DNA of 42,398 nt from an uncultured Methanosarcinales archaeon (lineage in GTDB: Archaea; Nanobdellota; Nanobdellia; Woesearchaeales; SM23-78), in NCBI GenBank assembly GCA_964404345.1, contig CAYOJS010000001.1, positions 1,839-44,236 on the forward strand, given 5' to 3'. Numbering within the stretch: position 1 is the first letter of the stretch; each line of letters opens with the position of its first letter. The notes below the pieces were generated by a model, which saw nothing but the letters and a program-made list of their open reading frames with translations, had not been told where the DNA came from and searched no databases. The position numbers were made by a program, and so were the translations under genes. Shown in pieces: positions 6,241-36,893 of the stretch.

Positions 6241-6300
6241 CAATAACCTTAAAAAGCCTGTTTTTCTTCTATCCTGTATTGGGCCCGTAGCATAGCCTGG

Positions 6301-6344
6301 GTATGTCAAATTCGTAAGAATTTGATCAGATCTGCATAGGGCAG
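6301..6344 (+). other. non-canonical tRNA intron in the D-loop (after G18G19), 44 nt
   Basis: Central 4-bp helix GCCT (6295-98) / GGGC (6339-42). 3-nt bulges GGG (6299-6301) and AGA (6343-45). Inner helix TATG/CATA. Same position and same central helix as the tRNA-Leu D-loop intron. Confidence 0.7.
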
Positions 6345-6363
6345 ATAGTGTATCCGGCTTCGG

Positions 6364-6378
6364 TTAAAATCAGGAGAA
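6364..6378 (+). other. canonical 37/38 tRNA intron, 15 nt
   Basis: Central helix CTTC (6358-61) / GGAG (6373-76). Bulges GGT (6362-64) and AAA (6377-79). The inner helix is almost absent, so this is a relaxed BHB. Confidence 0.7.
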
Positions 6379-6420
6379 ACCGGATGAGGGGGGTTCAAAT
6401 CCCTCCGGGCTCGCCTTTTT

Positions 6421-6583
6421 TTCAGTGCAGTATCGAACGAAGTGAGATACTCAGAATTCGGCGGAGTTCTGGTACCAGAAATCCCTAGGATTTCTGTGTA
6501 CTGCGGTTCAGGGTTCTAGGGAAGTGCTCAGAAATCATGGATTTCTGGCACGCCAAGAGCTTTGTTCTTGAGCGAATTCCCTA
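6421..6583 (+). repeat. ORF-less hairpin array between tRNA-Arg and the orphan copy of its 3' end
   Basis: Five consecutive hairpins: AGTATC/GATACT (6429-6451), CAGAATTC-GGCG-GAGTTCTG (6452-6471), a 14-bp stem at 6471-6502 with loop CTA, a 13-bp stem at 6524-6551 with loop ATG, and CAAGA/TCTTG (6554-6570). The CAGAA...TTCTG core recurs. Confidence 0.55.
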
Positions 6584-6606
6584 GGTTCATATCCCTCCGG
6601 ACTCGC
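6584..6606 (+). repeat. orphan direct repeat of the tRNA-Arg 3' end
   Basis: GGTTCATATCCCTCCGGACTCGC versus GGTTCAAATCCCTCCGGGCTCGC at 6392-6414 (21/23 identical). Both copies are followed by a T-run. No matching 5' half or T-stem partner was found. Confidence 0.7.
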
Positions 6607-30381: not shown

Positions 30382-30726
30382 TTAGGCCAATTTCAGTTTA
30401 GAAAGCAACGAGTCGAGTTTTCCTTCCGCGTCCGGCCCGATACCCAAGCAAGTGATCGTTCCAGGTTCCACAACCGTATGGCCAGCATCCATAATCAATG
30501 CCGTCGTCAACCCCGCGTCTCGAGCTCGTTTTTCATATAGCTTCAGTTCAGCTAAATCATCTACTTTGAGGACGATCTTTCCTTGCCCAGCTTCTTCCCA
30601 ATCTCTAACTTTCTCTCGGGAGCTGTTCGCTGCCGCTTGTACAGCTGCATGTGCCACTTGCGCTGCCATCTTCCCTTTCGGCAGTTTCAGATCTGCTCGA
30701 ACGAGAATCGCTTGTTTGTAGGTCAT
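30382..30726 (-). CDS. pth2: peptidyl-tRNA hydrolase, archaeal type (Pth2)
   Basis: 'YKQAILVRADLKLPKGKMAAQVAHAAV...TALIMDAGHTVVEPGTITCLGIGP'. Start taken at MTYKQ, not the track start 30792. Confidence 0.88.
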   Translation of the reverse strand: MTYKQAILVRADLKLPKGKMAAQVAHAAVQAAANSSREKVRDWEEAGQGKIVLKVDDLAELKLYEKRARDAGLTTALIMDAGHTVVEPGTITCLGIGPDAEGKLDSLLSKLKLA

Positions 30727-30849
30727 GCATCCCCCGAGCCACTCTAAGTTTATATGTTTTTGGCTCGATTCCTCATAGCCTTGCCGAAACACAAAGATTT
30801 TTAAGCCTAGTAAAACCCGTTTTTAACATGCGGGGGTAGCAAAGCCTGG

Positions 30850-30867
30850 CGTCGAATAGACGGGCAA
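30850..30867 (+). other. tRNA-Leu intron 1 (D-loop), 18 nt
   Basis: Central helix GCCT (30844-47) / GGGC (30862-65). Bulges GGC (30848-50) and AAT (30866-68). Inner helix GTC/GAC with loop GAATA. Confidence 0.75.
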
Positions 30868-30887
30868 TCAAATGCGCAGGACTTAAG

Positions 30888-30926
30888 ACACTTAAGTGCT
30901 GAGGCCTTCGGCCTGTGACGTAAGTC
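30888..30926 (+). other. tRNA-Leu intron 2 (canonical 37/38), 39 nt
   Basis: Central helix CTTA (30882-85) / TAAG (30921-24). Bulges AGA (30886-88) and TCA (30925-27). Internal hairpin AGGCC/GGCCT. Confidence 0.75.
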
Positions 30927-30950
30927 ATCCTGTCCCTTAGTGGGTTCGAG

Positions 30951-30981
30951 ATGCTCAAAACAAGCGTTTTGAGCACGAAAA
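30951..30981 (+). other. tRNA-Leu intron 3 (T-stem, between stem positions 3 and 4), 31 nt
   Basis: Central helix TTCG (30945-48) / CGAA (30976-79). Bulges AGA (30949-51) and AAG (30980-82). 10-bp inner helix TGCTCAAAAC/GTTTTGAGCA with loop AAGC. Confidence 0.75.
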
Positions 30982-31101
30982 GGTTCAAATCCCTTCCCCC
31001 GCATCTTTTTTAAAGGGATCACTAGGGGCACAGTTCCTGCGAAAACTAGATGAATCGCTACAGATTTCTCCTGTTAATTTTTTATTCCAAAGAGGCTTTG
31101 T

Positions 31102-32016
31102 ATGAATAAAAAAATTAACAAGGAAATCTTAGAGCTCGACGATATTTATAAGACCTACACAGGGTCAGTGCCAAATAAAGCAAAAGAAGCATTTAGAGAG
31201 TGGCTGCCTCTAGTACAGGGATCCAATCTAGCCCATGAATTTGCTTATCTAGTGGCTAAAATCATGGGTGACGGGCATCTTGATAATCATTTCACAGTCA
31301 AGCTCGTATCAAGCAAAAGTGAAAGCTTAGACTTCATCAAGGAACTACTCATCAAAAAATGCTCGATCCAAAGACAACAAATCAAGCTTTATAGGCGAGA
31401 TCATAGCCCGACTACCCATTTACTACAGATTAATAATTCTGCGTTTGGAAGAACCCTTCACGCTTTAGGAGCGCCCAAAGGGAATAAAACGCTCACTCCT
31501 TTCAAAATTCCTAAGTGGATTATAGAATCTAAAGAATCCAGCCGAATATTCCTTCAAGGGTTGTTAGAAGATGAACTCACAACGGTAAAAATCGAGAGAA
31601 AATCATATGTAAATAAGTTGAGATTTAACATGAGAAAAATCCCTTCTTTAAGAGCATCACTAATGGAGTTTCTTAGTCAAGTCAAAGAACGAATCGAAAG
31701 TTTCAATGTAACCTGTAGTGGATTGCGCGAGTTAAAGCTTACTAATCATGAAAGGGTAGAGTATTATTTTTGGATCCTCAGAAACAAAGAAAATGTCATC
31801 AGATTCGCTGAGAATATAGGGTTCCGCTTCAATCAAGAAAAGACCCAAAAGCTCCTAGAGGCCTACAAAATCCTAATGGCAACCAAAAAACCAAAGATCG
31901 ACAAAAAAGCGATTCTTAGACTCAGAGTCAAAGGATATAGCATTCGACAGATTGCAAATGAAGTGGGCACATCTAGGTCAGCAGTGCATAGACTGATAGT
32001 AAAGGAAAGATCTTAA
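31102..32016 (+). CDS. LAGLIDADG homing endonuclease (double-motif, monomeric type) with C-terminal HTH
   Basis: Motif 1 'FAYLVAKIMGDGHL', motif 2 'RIFLQGLLEDELT', and 'GAPKGNKTLTPFKIPKWI' typical of the family. The C-terminal 'GYSIRQIANEVGTSRSAVHRLI' is a resolvase/sigma-like HTH. Confidence 0.85.
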   Translation: MNKKINKEILELDDIYKTYTGSVPNKAKEAFREWLPLVQGSNLAHEFAYLVAKIMGDGHLDNHFTVKLVSSKSESLDFIKELLIKKCSIQRQQIKLYRRDHSPTTHLLQINNSAFGRTLHALGAPKGNKTLTPFKIPKWIIESKESSRIFLQGLLEDELTTVKIERKSYVNKLRFNMRKIPSLRASLMEFLSQVKERIESFNVTCSGLRELKLTNHERVEYYFWILRNKENVIRFAENIGFRFNQEKTQKLLEAYKILMATKKPKIDKKAILRLRVKGYSIRQIANEVGTSRSAVHRLIVKERS

Positions 32017-32019
32017 CGA

Positions 32020-32039
32020 TTCGAATCCCTTCCCCCGCA
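32020..32039 (+). repeat. orphan direct repeat of the tRNA-Leu 3' end (T-loop to discriminator)
   Basis: 19/20 identical to 30984-31003. Starts 3 nt after the endonuclease stop codon. No upstream tRNA body is present. Confidence 0.75.
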
Positions 32040-32075
32040 CTTTTCTATTTTTTCTAAAAACTTGGAACGAAAAAA

Positions 32076-32083
32076 CTATAAAG
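32076..32083 (+). promoter_or_regulatory. TATA box (CTATAAAG) for the NUDIX gene
   Basis: Centred about 25 nt upstream of GTG 32105. Confidence 0.45.
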
Positions 32084-32104
32084 ACAAATGAAACCCTTCT
32101 TAGA

Positions 32105-32569
32105 GTGAAACAAGCCACTTTGTGTTTTCTCGTGAAAGGCAAGCAAGTTCTCCTCGGCATGAAAAAGCGTGGCTTTGGCGAAGGCAAGTTCAACGGGTTT
32201 GGCGGTAAGCCGAAGGAGAACGAATCCTTGGAAGACGCGGCTCTTCGAGAATTGCTAGAAGAAGCAAAGGTTAAGGGTTCAAAAGAAAACCTAGAGAAGA
32301 TGGCTGCTTTGTCCTTTTTCTTTTCACAAAAGCCCGAGTGGAATCAACAAGTGCATGTATTCGTGTTAAAGGAATGGGAAGGCAGTCCAGAGGAAACAGA
32401 AGAAATGGCTCCAGCTTGGTTTCACCATGAAAAGATTCCATTCGGTAAGATGTGGCAGGACGACCAACATTGGCTTCCTCGAATACTAAACGGAAAAAAG
32501 TTAGAAGCAGAATTCACCTTTGGCAAGGACAATGAATCCATTCTTGATTTTAAGATGAAGGAAAAATAA
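32105..32569 (+). CDS. NUDIX hydrolase, MTH1/MutT-like
   Basis: Nudix box 'GFGGKPKENESLEDAALRELLEEAKV' and an MTH1-like 'MWQDDQHWLPRILNGKKLEAEFTF'. Confidence 0.85.
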   Translation: MKQATLCFLVKGKQVLLGMKKRGFGEGKFNGFGGKPKENESLEDAALRELLEEAKVKGSKENLEKMAALSFFFSQKPEWNQQVHVFVLKEWEGSPEETEEMAPAWFHHEKIPFGKMWQDDQHWLPRILNGKKLEAEFTFGKDNESILDFKMKEK

Positions 32570-36748: not shown

Positions 36749-36893
36749 AAGGGCACAAGCCGGACAGAGGCAGGGTTTAAGACGAAAACTTGGTTTAAAT
36801 ACTTTGTCGGTGGATGTCCAGTGGTTTCGAGGTAGGGGATTCGAACGCAAAGATTTATAAAACAACAAAGCTTAGGAGATCAAGAGGGATTGT

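What the first reader, a model, noticed from the sequence alone, without database searches (positions are those of the whole stretch)
30984..32039. LAGLIDADG-HTH cassette bracketed by duplicated tRNA-Leu 3' ends, with no integrase
Seen in the sequence:
- The intact tRNA-Leu gene ends with TTCAAATCCCTTCCCCCGCA (30984-31003).
- A 19/20-identical orphan copy, TTCGAATCCCTTCCCCCGCA, sits at 32020-32039.
- Both copies are followed by T-rich tracts.
- The only ORF between them (31102..32016) ends 3 nt before the orphan copy. It has two LAGLIDADG motifs plus a C-terminal HTH.

Established knowledge: a duplicated tRNA 3' end is the usual footprint of integrase-mediated insertion. LAGLIDADG enzymes in archaea are known from rRNA BHB introns and inteins, not as free-standing cassettes abutting a tRNA gene.

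Inference: this is a homing-endonuclease-driven element that targets the T-loop/acceptor DNA of tRNA-Leu and carries a replacement 3' end. The T-stem intron (30951-30981) ends 2 nt before the repeat, so intron and cassette may share a history. The same architecture, without an ORF, is seen at tRNA-Arg.
Basis: partly seen in the sequence, partly recalled or inferred. Interest (0 to 1): 0.8.

Follow-up and report, generated by a model that had tools for sequence, protein, structure and literature searches.

The report
Homing-endonuclease cassette inserted in tRNA-Leu gene
A selfish ~1.07-kb DNA insertion in a tiny archaeon's tRNA-Leu gene brought in a small intron, a replacement tRNA end and a DNA-cutting enzyme gene together, stranding the old tRNA end downstream, which suggests how archaeal tRNA genes acquire odd introns.

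Summary
A close relative (L068, LysRS 89% identical) keeps the same locus empty: tRNA-Leu(UAA) without a T-stem intron, followed directly by NUDIX. Compared with it, the window carries one ~1069-nt insertion (30951-32019). It holds a 31-nt BHB intron at T-stem position 51/52, a new tRNA 3' end, a spacer and the 304-aa ORF. The "orphan" 20-mer is the original 3' end, still joined to its old terminator and the NUDIX flank.

The ORF folds confidently (pLDDT 95) as a two-motif LAGLIDADG endonuclease plus a resolvase-type HTH. It is closest to the archaeal intron enzymes I-Tsp061I and I-DmoI, and its acidic motif residues are invariant in 32 relatives.

Among 39 non-redundant relatives in DPANN archaea, 35 sit beside a tRNA-Leu gene, in four arrangements. 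About two-thirds of those tRNAs carry the same T-stem intron, against 0 of 5 ORF-less controls. Two other lineages (L052, L071) show orphans of their own.

Best reading: a free-standing homing endonuclease and an ORF-less BHB intron that home together ("collaborative homing"), not previously described for archaeal tRNA genes. Cleavage is untested, and most relatives lack flanking repeats.

The parts
30830..31003 (+). tRNA-Leu(UAA) gene, 174 nt with three introns; 86 nt when spliced
   Evidence: Own detector. Alignment to the intronless tRNA-Leu of L032. ARAGORN calls tRNA-Leu(taa) on the in-silico spliced sequence. The anticodon TAA lies at 30884-30886.
30850..30867 (+). D-loop intron, about 18 nt (boundaries +/-2 nt)
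   Evidence: Insertion relative to the intronless reference at position 20. A homologous intron is present in the ORF-less relatives L068 and L067, so it pre-dates the cassette.
30889..30927 (+). Canonical anticodon-loop intron (37/38), 39 nt
   Evidence: Nearly identical in L068, L067 and L071, so it was inherited vertically.
30951..30981 (+). T-stem BHB intron (between positions 51 and 52), 31 nt; left edge of the insertion
   Evidence: Absent from the empty-site relatives L068, L067 and L071. It is one of 27 distinct introns at this site. All have exon UYCG paired with intron 3' CGRR, with covariation, and two 3-nt bulges that carry the splice sites.
30982..31003 (+). Replacement 3' exon (GG + TTCAAATCCCTTCCCCCGCA): rest of the T-arm plus acceptor 3' strand
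   Evidence: It lies inside the block that the empty site lacks.
31004..31101 (+). Spacer. Holds a T-tract terminator for the tRNA (31004-31011), a degenerate CACTGGACA-like box (31020-32), a TATA-like ttaattttttatt (31075-87) and a GAGG Shine-Dalgarno-like site (31092-95).
   Evidence: Read from the sequence. The exact CACTGGACA box lies about 45-60 nt upstream of the ORF in at least 8 related loci. The promoter role is inferred.
31102..32016 (+). Free-standing LAGLIDADG-HTH gene (304 aa), a putative homing endonuclease
   Evidence: - Pfam HTH_7 at residues 263-297.
- D57 and E156/D157/E158 are invariant in 32 relatives.
- AlphaFold2 gives pLDDT 95.1 and pTM 0.88.
- Foldseek top hits are I-Tsp061I (E 1.8e-8), an intein endonuclease and I-DmoI.
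- 35 of 39 relatives lie next to tRNA-Leu.
32020..32039 (+). Orphan: the original, displaced 3' end of the tRNA-Leu gene (from T54 to the discriminator base)
   Evidence: Collinear with the 3' end of the intact tRNA in L068 and with its downstream flank. The preceding bases (GA rather than GG) would give an A53.C61 mismatch, and no BHB motif precedes it.
32040..32104 (+). Ancestral tRNA terminator (T-tract 32040-32054) and NUDIX upstream region; now also ends the ORF's transcription unit
   Evidence: 86% identical to the sequence that follows the intact tRNA-Leu in L068, continuing into NUDIX. The terminator role for the ORF is inferred.
30951..32019 (+). The whole insertion relative to the empty site (about 1069 nt): intron + new 3' exon + spacer + ORF + 3 nt
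   Evidence: The left junction is exactly GAG|intron. On the right, homology with the empty site resumes at T54.

Best explanation
**What is shown**
- The segment 30951-32019 is a recent insertion into the T-stem of the tRNA-Leu(UAA) gene.
- It delivered four things together: a 31-nt BHB intron at position 51/52, a fresh copy of the tRNA's 3' end, a promoter-bearing spacer, and a free-standing LAGLIDADG-HTH gene.
- The 20-mer at 32020-32039 is the gene's old 3' end. It was pushed downstream and remains attached to its old terminator and the NUDIX gene.

**What is inferred**
- The ORF encodes an active homing endonuclease. Its target is the uninterrupted T-arm DNA of tRNA-Leu, roughly ..GTYCGNG|GGTTCRAATCCC.., spanning the intron insertion site.
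- In a cell that carries the cassette, the functional gene is protected because the intron splits the site. The orphan is protected because it lacks the left half-site.
- In an intron-less genome the enzyme would cut the tRNA gene. Repair from a cassette-bearing copy would then copy the intron, the 3' exon and the endonuclease gene across.
- When the far flank is not homologous, the copied strand is joined to the broken end. That leaves the recipient's own 3' end as an orphan starting at about the cut site.
- Intron and endonuclease gene therefore help each other spread: the intron gives immunity and the enzyme gives mobility. This matches "collaborative homing" of the ORF-less psbA intron and F-CphI in cyanophages.
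- The splicing endonuclease removes the intron from the pre-tRNA, so the host keeps a working tRNA-Leu.
For: 1. **Empty site.** L068 (LysRS 89% identical, same Rhodanese-NUDIX-PTH2-LysRS synteny) has tRNA-Leu(UAA) with the same D-loop and anticodon introns. It has no T-stem intron and no ORF, and NUDIX follows directly. Alignments put the left edge at the intron's 5' end. They show the orphan collinear with the ancestral 3' end and flank, at 86% identity.
2. **Fold and residues.** The model has pLDDT 95.1. Foldseek hits the archaeal intron endonucleases I-Tsp061I (E 1.8e-8) and I-DmoI (about 5e-6), plus intein endonucleases. The acidic residues at the ends of both motif helices (D57; E156-D157-E158) are invariant in 32 sequences. 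The exhaustive profile search finds distant relatives embedded in 900-2400-aa proteins, as inteins are.
3. **Linkage.** 35 of 39 non-redundant intact relatives lie within a few hundred nt of a tRNA-Leu gene. Three of the four exceptions lack flanking sequence. There are four different arrangements, which is expected if only closeness to a cut site matters.
4. **The intron.** 27 distinct T-stem introns share one site and a canonical BHB with a covarying 4-bp helix. They occur in 22 of 33 ORF-linked tRNA-Leu genes, against 0 of 5 ORF-less tRNA-Leu(UAA) controls (p=0.009) and 0 of 14 other tRNAs in the same loci (p=1.4e-5).
5. **Independent scars.**
   - L052 has tRNA(+intron)-ORF-orphan. Its orphan matches the spliced, intron-less T-arm over 27 nt.
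   - L071, a fourth allele of the window's own locus, has a T-loop intron (59/60) plus an orphan that starts 2 nt from that site.
   - In the window, the orphan starts 0-2 nt from 51/52.
6. **Selfish-element signatures.** Close relatives differ in presence or absence. Decayed copies lie beside tRNA-Leu in L022, L031-L033 and L049. The family is rare: 41 clusters among 5.8 billion.
7. **Flanking exon base.** The window reads GGGTTCGAG where its three close relatives read GGGTACGAG. That T pairs with the intron's CGAA.
8. **Precedent.** The mechanism is described in PMC6083498, citing Zeng et al. 2009, and in PMC2790892.
Against: - No cleavage, splicing or expression data exist, so the target site is inferred only from junctions.
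- Only 2 of about 35 ORF-linked loci carry an orphan.
- About a third of ORF-linked tRNA-Leu genes lack the T-stem intron. L012 and L027 combine an intact ORF with an uninterrupted, target-like T-arm, which the immunity idea does not explain. L051 has no intron at all.
- Orphan left edges vary (positions 46, 52-54, 58-59), so they do not define a single cut site.
- The control set is small (5). All ORF-linked loci were found through the ORF, which is an ascertainment bias.
- The ORF tree shows that arrangements are clade-specific. Many loci may therefore reflect vertical inheritance rather than repeated homing.
- Pfam LAGLIDADG_3 is below its cut-off.
- WhiA, a non-catalytic LAGLIDADG+HTH regulator, is also among the structural hits.
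Confidence: 0.62

Rival explanations
1. **Integrase-type insertion.** The cassette is a small, non-autonomous integrative element. Its attachment site is an intron-containing copy of the tRNA-Leu 3' part. A tyrosine or serine recombinase encoded elsewhere inserted it by site-specific recombination. The LAGLIDADG gene is cargo, or only a stabilising passenger.
For: - Direct repeats of a tRNA 3' end are the classical att footprint.
- Sugahara et al. 2012 proposed exactly this route for simultaneous intron gain and a stranded tRNA fragment at tRNA-Thr of Caldiarchaeum.
- The orphan in L052 includes 6 nt upstream of the intron site, as a crossover 5' of the intron would predict.
- ORF-less insertions with orphans exist at tRNA-Arg (window) and tRNA-Leu (L071). 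They share a small hairpin element, like a miniature mobile element.
- The protein's HTH resembles the resolvase HTH.
Against: - There is no recombinase in the insertion. The neighbouring genes are housekeeping and syntenic with the empty site.
- In the window the orphan has no homology to the tRNA upstream of position 52-54. No shared core therefore spans a crossover 5' of the intron.
- This model does not explain why a LAGLIDADG family is tied to tRNA-Leu in four arrangements, including upstream and antisense-overlapping ones, in about 35 lineages that mostly lack repeats.
- It also does not explain why orphan edges coincide with the intron sites of the functional copy.
Confidence: 0.13
2. 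**Domesticated DNA- or RNA-binding protein.** The ORF is no longer a mobile nuclease. It is a WhiA-like regulator or a maturase-like helper that acts on the adjacent multi-intron tRNA-Leu gene or its transcript. The orphan is an unrelated rearrangement scar.
For: - The architecture (LAGLIDADG fold plus C-terminal HTH) is that of WhiA, which appears among the structural hits, as does the bI3 maturase.
- The tight, conserved linkage to one tRNA gene could reflect a cis-acting function.
- Arrangements are stable within ORF clades.
- A conserved CACTGGACA box upstream of the ORF suggests regulated expression.
Against: - The acidic catalytic positions that WhiA has lost are invariant here.
- Close relatives of the window's organism lack the gene entirely yet keep tRNA-Leu.
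- Several copies are decayed, and the family is rare.
- BHB splicing needs no maturase, from established knowledge of archaeal splicing endonucleases.
- The ORF arrived together with the intron and a duplicated 3' end, which points to mobility.
Confidence: 0.1
3. **Giant intron or split tRNA.** The distal 20-mer is a functional 3' exon. Either the whole of 30951-32019 is spliced out as one large ORF-containing BHB intron, as in archaeal rRNA introns, or the 20-mer is a separately expressed 3' half.
For: - The insertion sits exactly at a BHB intron site.
- Archaeal rRNA BHB introns do carry LAGLIDADG ORFs (I-DmoI, I-Tsp061I).
- The orphan keeps its T-tract.
Against: - The orphan is preceded by GA, not GG. 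Joining it to the 5' exon would give an A53.C61 mismatch at a universally conserved pair.
- The CGRR-AA|G 3' splice context found in all 27 introns is absent before the orphan.
- A complete, correctly spliceable tRNA already exists upstream with its own terminator.
- Orphans are absent from most relatives.
- No complementary leader or 5' half is nearby.
Confidence: 0.04

Closest known systems
Collaborative homing in phages: free-standing F-CphI with the ORF-less psbA group I intron of cyanophage S-PM2 (Zeng, Bonocora & Shub 2009, as described in PMC6083498), and T4 mobE with the nrdB intron (PMC2790892)
   Same: - A free-standing endonuclease gene lies next to a target gene that carries an ORF-less intron at the presumed cut site.
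- The intron would protect the host allele and the enzyme would mobilise the intron.
- Close relatives differ in the presence or absence of intron plus endonuclease gene together.
   Different: - The host is a cellular archaeon, not a phage.
- The intron is a protein-spliced BHB intron in a tRNA, not a self-splicing group I intron in a protein gene.
- The enzyme is LAGLIDADG, not EndoVII-like or HNH.
- The insertion also duplicates the target's 3' end.
- Cleavage is untested here.
Archaeal rRNA BHB-intron-encoded LAGLIDADG endonucleases (I-DmoI, I-Tsp061I, I-PorI)
   Same: - Best structural matches.
- Two-motif monomeric LAGLIDADG enzymes of archaea, associated with BHB introns in stable-RNA genes.
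   Different: - The ORF lies outside the 31-nt intron, 120 nt downstream and beyond the tRNA's end.
- The host gene is a tRNA, not an rRNA.
- The protein carries an extra resolvase-type HTH.
- Sequence identity is only about 15%.
Phage T4 SegB (PMC2330249)
   Same: A free-standing homing endonuclease sits among tRNA genes and cuts tRNA-gene DNA of relatives that lack it, driving inheritance of its own region.
   Different: It is a GIY-YIG enzyme in a phage. No intron and no duplicated tRNA end are involved.
Mobile-element model of tRNA disruption at tRNA-Thr(GGU) in Caldiarchaeum subterraneum (Sugahara et al. 2012, PMC3293823)
   Same: Population heterogeneity at one tRNA locus. A roughly 1-2 kb insertion lies beside the tRNA, an intron was gained at the same time, and a stranded tRNA fragment forms a direct repeat.
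   Different: There the insertion encodes a DNA recombinase and the fragment is a 5' piece, with pNOB8-type att recombination proposed. Here the only gene is a LAGLIDADG enzyme, the fragment is a 3' piece, and the junctions lack a shared core around the intron.
WhiA (bacterial LAGLIDADG + HTH transcription factor)
   Same: Same two-module architecture, and it appears in the fold search.
   Different: WhiA lacks the catalytic acidic residues and is universally conserved in Gram-positive bacteria. Here the acidic residues are invariant and the gene is patchy and sometimes decayed.

Membership tests
LAGLIDADG homing endonucleases (two-motif, monomeric) | Two LAGLIDADG helices, each ending in a conserved acidic residue | tested here: met
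   Helix 42-55 is followed by G56-D57-G58, and helix 144-158 ends in E156-D157-E158. These residues are invariant in 32 relatives.
LAGLIDADG homing endonucleases (two-motif, monomeric) | Pseudo-symmetric alpha-beta-beta-alpha-beta-beta-alpha fold matching solved enzymes | tested here: met
   The model has pLDDT 95.1. Foldseek hits I-Tsp061I (E 1.8e-8) and I-DmoI (about 5e-6), followed by PI-SceI, I-AniI and I-SceI.
LAGLIDADG homing endonucleases (two-motif, monomeric) | Score above the curated Pfam threshold (LAGLIDADG_1/2/3) | tested here: not met
   LAGLIDADG_3 scores 17.6 bits against a cut-off of 22.5, E 0.0045. The family is too divergent for the curated model, so membership rests on structure and motifs.
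LAGLIDADG homing endonucleases (two-motif, monomeric) | Site-specific double-strand cleavage with 4-nt 3' overhangs | not testable with these tools
   Needs purified protein and substrate DNA.
Collaborative homing (free-standing endonuclease gene + ORF-less intron) | Endonuclease gene outside the intron but adjacent to the intron-bearing gene | tested here: met
   The ORF starts 120 nt after the intron and 98 nt after the tRNA's end. 35 of 39 relatives are adjacent to tRNA-Leu.
Collaborative homing (free-standing endonuclease gene + ORF-less intron) | Intron and endonuclease gene present or absent together in close relatives | tested here: met
   The window has both. L068, L067 and L071 (89-93% identical neighbouring genes) have neither. 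Across lineages the count is 22/33 against 0/5, p=0.009. Exceptions exist.
Collaborative homing (free-standing endonuclease gene + ORF-less intron) | The enzyme cuts the intron-less allele at the intron insertion site, and the intron blocks cutting | not testable with these tools
   Only indirect evidence: orphan edges lie 0-2 nt from the intron sites in the window and L071.
Archaeal BHB introns | Two 3-nt bulges separated by a 4-bp helix, with splice sites in the bulges | tested here: met
   Exon UYCG pairs with intron CGRR in 27 of 27 introns, with covariation (TCCG/CGGA 10, TTCG/CGAA 7, CGTG/CACG 1, and no C.A mismatch). The bulges are NG|N and AA|G.
Intron-encoded archaeal endonuclease (I-DmoI type) | ORF located inside the spliced intron | tested here: not met
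   The intron is 31 nt and the ORF lies beyond the tRNA's 3' end and terminator. The giant-intron reading fails on the splice context.
Integrase-mediated tRNA-targeting integrative element | Direct repeat of the tRNA end at both borders | tested here: met
   19/20 repeat, with 0 expected by chance.
Integrase-mediated tRNA-targeting integrative element | Tyrosine or serine recombinase encoded in the element | tested here: not met
   There is a single ORF. Its only recombinase-like feature is the HTH, with no catalytic domain.
WhiA-like regulators | LAGLIDADG fold with loss of the catalytic acidic residues, and universal conservation in the clade | tested here: not met
   The acidic residues are invariant. 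The gene is absent from close relatives.
Split or alternative tRNA half | The fragment completes a valid cloverleaf and has a BHB or leader for joining | tested here: not met
   The GA before the orphan gives an A53.C61 mismatch. There is no CGRR-AA|G context and no leader.
Group I intron | Match to the Rfam group I intron models | tested here: not met
   No such hit in 30700-32200, even at E up to 10. The archaeal group I introns that have been reported are in rRNA genes.

The most novel reading that the evidence does not exclude
This LAGLIDADG family may be a general engine of non-canonical intron gain in archaeal tRNA genes.

- Successive enzyme variants with different cut sites would each leave a protective BHB intron. 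That would explain why the tRNA-Leu genes next to these ORFs carry up to five introns at a few recurrent sites (after position 8, in the D-loop, in the anticodon stem, at 37/38, at 51/52 and at 59/60).
- The enzyme would occasionally hit other tRNAs that share the GGGTTCAAATCCC core, such as the tRNA-Arg orphan in the window and the tRNA-Glu-linked copy in L057.
- Small hairpin elements found next to orphans at tRNA-Arg (window) and tRNA-Leu (L071) would be non-autonomous hitch-hikers of the same break-repair process.
- Archaeal tRNA introns would then be immunity scars of an arms race with homing endonucleases.
Probability: 0.3. Interest if true: 0.9.

Novelty: new variant of a known kind. 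Interest (0 to 1): 0.8.

Why it matters
How archaeal tRNA genes gain introns at odd positions, and how split and fragmented tRNA genes arise, has been debated since the Thermoproteales "intron transposition" and Nanoarchaeum split-tRNA findings. No enzyme has been tied to the process. ORF-less BHB tRNA introns have no known means of moving.

This locus offers a concrete candidate: a defined protein, a defined 20-30-bp target, and natural filled and empty alleles from the same aquifer population. It also extends collaborative homing from phage group I introns to cellular archaea and protein-spliced introns. It adds a divergent, compact LAGLIDADG+HTH scaffold with a deducible target.

As a practical matter, standard tRNA finders miss these genes entirely.

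Tried and rejected
- **tRNA finders.** ARAGORN on the window and on related loci found none of the intron-rich tRNA-Leu genes. Rfam at the gathering threshold found only tRNA-Arg. A relaxed-threshold scan of 30700-32200 gave only noise and no group I intron. I therefore wrote my own detector and aligned genes to an intronless reference.
- **PDB sequence-profile search.** It gave only the HTH (gamma-delta resolvase) and a weak I-Tsp061I hit, E 0.01. Fold comparison was needed.
- **Other remnants in the window.** A tblastn search with the ORF family found no convincing hit. In particular, the tRNA-Arg insert shows no decayed ORF.
- **Control set from viral contigs.** The scan gave 0 matches (one malformed pattern, then). 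Controls therefore came from LysRS and PTH2 neighbourhoods. L069 and L081-L084 held no tRNA-Leu.
- **Giant intron, split half, integrase, WhiA-like regulator.** All were considered and down-weighted for the reasons given under rivals.
- **Tandem duplication at tRNA-Arg.** Rejected, because the 170-nt insert does not resemble the sequence after the orphan.
- **Literature.** Searches found no description of a LAGLIDADG gene linked to archaeal tRNA genes. The library does not cover most subscription journals.
Full report
**1. The observation**

They are the only matches in the window at up to three mismatches, and none is expected by chance. Both are followed by T-rich tracts.

The upstream copy ends a real tRNA-Leu(UAA) gene at 30830-31003. 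ARAGORN and Rfam both miss it because it holds three introns. With these removed in silico, ARAGORN calls an 86-nt tRNA-Leu(taa).

- D-loop intron: about 30850-30867.
- Canonical anticodon-loop intron: 30889-30927.
- T-stem intron: 30951-30981.

The only substantial ORF between the copies is 31102-32016. Its stop codon ends 3 nt before the orphan.

**2. The protein**

- Pfam sees a resolvase-type HTH at residues 263-297. LAGLIDADG_3 gets only a sub-threshold match.
- An alignment of 32 relatives shows two invariant motifs, YLxGKxxGDGHL and FLQGLLEDELT.
- AlphaFold2 gives a very confident model (pLDDT 95.1, pTM 0.88). Both motif helices end in the acidic residues.
- The best Foldseek matches are the archaeal intron-encoded endonuclease I-Tsp061I (E 1.8e-8), an intein endonuclease and I-DmoI. 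WhiA and the bI3 maturase rank lower.
- An exhaustive profile search finds 71 representatives at E<1e-30 and 758 at E<1e-10. Some of the distant ones are domains inside 900-2400-aa proteins, as intein endonucleases are.

The protein is therefore a divergent but apparently catalytically intact two-motif LAGLIDADG enzyme with an extra DNA-binding HTH.

**3. Linkage to tRNA-Leu**

The ORF has about 40 relatives at 36-48% identity, all from DPANN-type archaea: Woesearchaeota, Nanoarchaeota and Aenigmatarchaeota bins. I fetched about 60 loci and searched them with my own detector for intron-interrupted tRNAs.

Of 39 non-redundant loci with an intact ORF, 35 have a tRNA-Leu gene next to it, usually within 130 nt. 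The anticodon is mostly UAA and sometimes CAA. Three of the four exceptions lack flanking sequence. L057 is the one true exception and lies beside a tRNA-Glu whose T-arm has the same GGGTTCAAATCCC core.

| Arrangement | Loci | Note |
|---|---|---|
| tRNA then ORF, same strand | 21 | includes the window |
| ORF then tRNA, convergent | 9 | ORF's last codons overlap the tRNA's 3' end by up to 55 nt |
| ORF then tRNA, same strand | 2 | |
| tRNA then ORF, divergent | 2 | |

For a gene that occurs once in a roughly 1-Mb genome, such linkage cannot be chance. Arrangements are largely clade-specific on the ORF tree, so the ORF and the tRNA travel as a unit. Several copies are decayed: L022, L031, L032, L033 and L049.

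**4. The empty site**

Relatives of the neighbouring LysRS at 89% identity lie in the same synteny: Rhodanese, 2Fe-2S protein, NUDIX, gap, PTH2, LysRS. They have no LAGLIDADG gene.

In L068 the gap holds tRNA-Leu(UAA) with the same D-loop and anticodon introns. Its T-arm is uninterrupted (..gggtacgagGGTTCAAATCCCTTCCCCCGCA), and the T-tract and NUDIX follow directly.

Alignments show two things.
- The window's tRNA differs in the T-arm only by the 31-nt intron, which lies exactly between GAG and GG.
- The window's sequence from the orphan onward is collinear with L068 from T54 through the intergenic region into NUDIX, at 86% identity.

So the orphan is the ancestral 3' end. The window gained one block, about 30951-32019, made of the intron, GG plus a new 20-nt 3' end, a 98-nt spacer, the ORF and 3 nt.

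**5. The intron**

Twenty-seven distinct tRNA-Leu genes carry an intron of 24-32 nt at this same site. In all 27, the exon tetranucleotide UYCG just upstream pairs with CGRR near the intron's 3' end, and the pairing covaries:
- TCCG/CGGA 10, TCCG/CGGG 1;
- TTCG/CGAA 7, TTCG/CGAG 5, TTCG/CGGA 3;
- CGTG/CACG 1.

Two 3-nt bulges (NG|N and AA|G) carry the splice sites. This is the canonical bulge-helix-bulge geometry.

The intron is present in 22 of 33 ORF-linked tRNA-Leu genes. It is absent from all five ORF-less tRNA-Leu(UAA) controls (L068, L067, L071, L077, L079; Fisher p=0.009). It is also absent from all 14 other tRNAs in the same loci (p=1.4e-5).

The window's exon reads UUCG where its three close relatives read UACG. 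That base pairs with the intron, which suggests co-conversion of the flank or later compensation.

**6. Other scars**

- **L052** (ORF 46% identical to the window's) has the order tRNA with T-stem intron, ORF, orphan. Its orphan, CCGTGGGTTCGAATCCCATCCCTCGCA, matches the spliced T-arm over 27 nt. A second, 15-nt orphan lies 95 nt further on.
- **L071-L076** (PTH2 93% identical; a fourth allele of the window's own locus) have no T-stem intron and no ORF. They have an 85-nt intron in the T-loop (59/60), then the 3' end, a 62-nt spacer, and an orphan AATCCCTTCCCCTGCA that starts 2 nt from that intron site. The NUDIX flank follows.
- **L067** has a 45-nt T-loop intron, with an ACT-domain gene in place of the old flank.

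The T-arm and 3' flank of this tRNA gene are therefore a hotspot of recent rearrangement. In three cases an intron in the functional copy is paired with an intron-less orphan, and in the window and L071 that orphan begins within about 2 nt of the intron site.

**7. Mechanism**

Shown:
- the insertion and its content;
- the displaced original 3' end;
- the LAGLIDADG fold with conserved acidic residues;
- the family-wide linkage to tRNA-Leu;
- the BHB nature of the intron and its association with the ORF.

Inferred:
- The enzyme cuts intron-less tRNA-Leu DNA across position 51/52.
- The intron protects the functional gene, and the lack of the left half-site protects the orphan.
- Break repair from a cassette-bearing template copies the intron, the 3' exon and the endonuclease gene.
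- End-joining at a non-homologous far side leaves the recipient's 3' end as an orphan.
- Within a population, ordinary two-sided homing can then spread the whole unit.

This is the logic of collaborative homing described for F-CphI and the psbA intron, and for mobE and the nrdB intron. T4 SegB is a precedent for a free-standing endonuclease that targets tRNA-gene DNA.

A side effect is that the tRNA gets a new terminator, while the ORF's transcript can end at the old one.

**8. Weak points**

- Cleavage is untested.
- Only two ORF-linked loci keep an orphan.
- A third of ORF-linked tRNAs lack the T-stem intron. Most of these have divergent T-stems, which could give immunity by target variation. 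L012 and L027 have target-like, uninterrupted T-arms with intact ORFs.
- Orphan edges are not identical.
- The control set is small, and the loci were ascertained through the ORF.

**9. Rivals**

- **Integrase route.** An integrase acting in trans on an intron-bearing att site, as Sugahara et al. proposed for Caldiarchaeum tRNA-Thr, fits L052 and the ORF-less insertions. It does not fit the window's junctions, which lack a shared core 5' of the intron. It also does not explain the family-wide tRNA-Leu linkage.
- **WhiA-like regulator.** This is contradicted by the conserved acidic residues and the patchy, sometimes decayed distribution.
- **Giant intron or split half.** This fails on the T-stem pair and the splice context.

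**10. Novelty**

I found no description of a LAGLIDADG gene linked to archaeal tRNA genes, or of homing of BHB tRNA introns. Reported archaeal LAGLIDADG enzymes sit in rRNA introns, group I introns or inteins.

I rate this a new variant of a known kind: collaborative or free-standing homing, transferred to archaeal tRNA genes and BHB introns. It bears directly on how tRNA introns and tRNA fragments arise.

Noticed in passing
window 6281-6605: tRNA-Arg(UCG) at 6281-6413 has two introns and none in the T-arm. A 20/22 orphan of its 3' end lies at 6584-6605, starting at G52, the same T-stem position as in tRNA-Leu. The 170 nt between them (6414-6583) hold no ORF and fold unusually well (MFE -67.3 kcal/mol, z -5.0).
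   Followed up: partly
window 6505-6524 and 6574-6585; L071 2122-2150 (minus strand): The tRNA-Arg insert of the window and the tRNA-Leu insert of L071 share an exact 18-mer, TTCAGGGTTCTAGGGAAG, and the arm GAATTCCCTAGG that abuts the orphan. A small hairpin element therefore recurs at two different tRNAs in two genomes. It may be a non-autonomous mobile element.
   Followed up: partly
window 36815-36847 (minus strand): A third tRNA-3'-end-like fragment, GTTCGAATCCCCTACCTCGA, matches the tRNA-Leu ends of L012, L015 and L022 at 18/19. No 5' half is nearby. CACTGGACA follows 5 nt later, then a TATA-like box, just upstream of a 916-aa helicase-like ORF. It may be the remnant of an older cassette that now serves as a promoter.
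   Followed up: partly
L005, L014, L017, L024, L046, L049, L052, L062 (upstream of the ORF); degenerate at window 31020-31032: The motif CACTGGACA has 14 exact hits against about 3 expected. It lies about 45-60 nt upstream of the LAGLIDADG ORF start and 15-20 nt upstream of a TATA-like box, in lineages both with and without the HTH. It may be an operator or promoter element of the cassette.
   Followed up: partly
L052 1637-1651: A second, shorter orphan (ATCCCATCCCTCGCA) lies 95 nt after the first and is preceded by hairpins. It starts at the T-loop 59/60 position, where L053, L067 and L071 have introns. This hints at an earlier, separate insertion event.
   Followed up: no
L031 3706-3957; L056 3682-3930; L004 3719-3937; L015; L017: tRNA-Leu genes next to the ORF carry up to five introns at recurrent sites: after position 8, in the D-loop, in the anticodon stem, at 37/38 and at 51/52. 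L053 adds one in the T-loop. Other tRNAs in the same loci have none or one.
   Followed up: partly
L010, L011, L012, L013, L047, L051 (convergent loci): The ORF's last codons run antisense into the tRNA-Leu 3' end, overlapping by 19-55 nt. In L010 (checked) the ORF stops at the TGA that is the antisense of the T-loop TTCAAAT.
   Followed up: partly
L067 3398-3900: In this close relative the tRNA-Leu has a 45-nt T-loop intron. An ACT-domain gene replaces the ancestral tRNA-NUDIX spacer, and there is no orphan.
   Followed up: no
L079/L080 about 1650-1720: An ORF-less tRNA-Leu(UAA) is preceded, about 60 nt upstream, by a duplicate of its own 5' end (GCGGGGGTGCCGG). This is a 5'-side counterpart of the orphan phenomenon.
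   Followed up: no
L057 374-460 and 815-1639: This is the one ORF relative not beside tRNA-Leu. It lies about 250-350 nt downstream of a tRNA-Glu(CUC) whose T-arm contains the same GGGTTCAAATCCC core as tRNA-Leu and the window's tRNA-Arg.
   Followed up: no
window, whole; all loci: ARAGORN found no tRNA in the window and none of the tRNA-Leu genes in the five related loci scanned. Rfam found only one tRNA in the window. Several source bins carry implausible labels for DPANN-like contigs ("Methanosarcinales", "bacterium", "Deltaproteobacteria").
   Followed up: no
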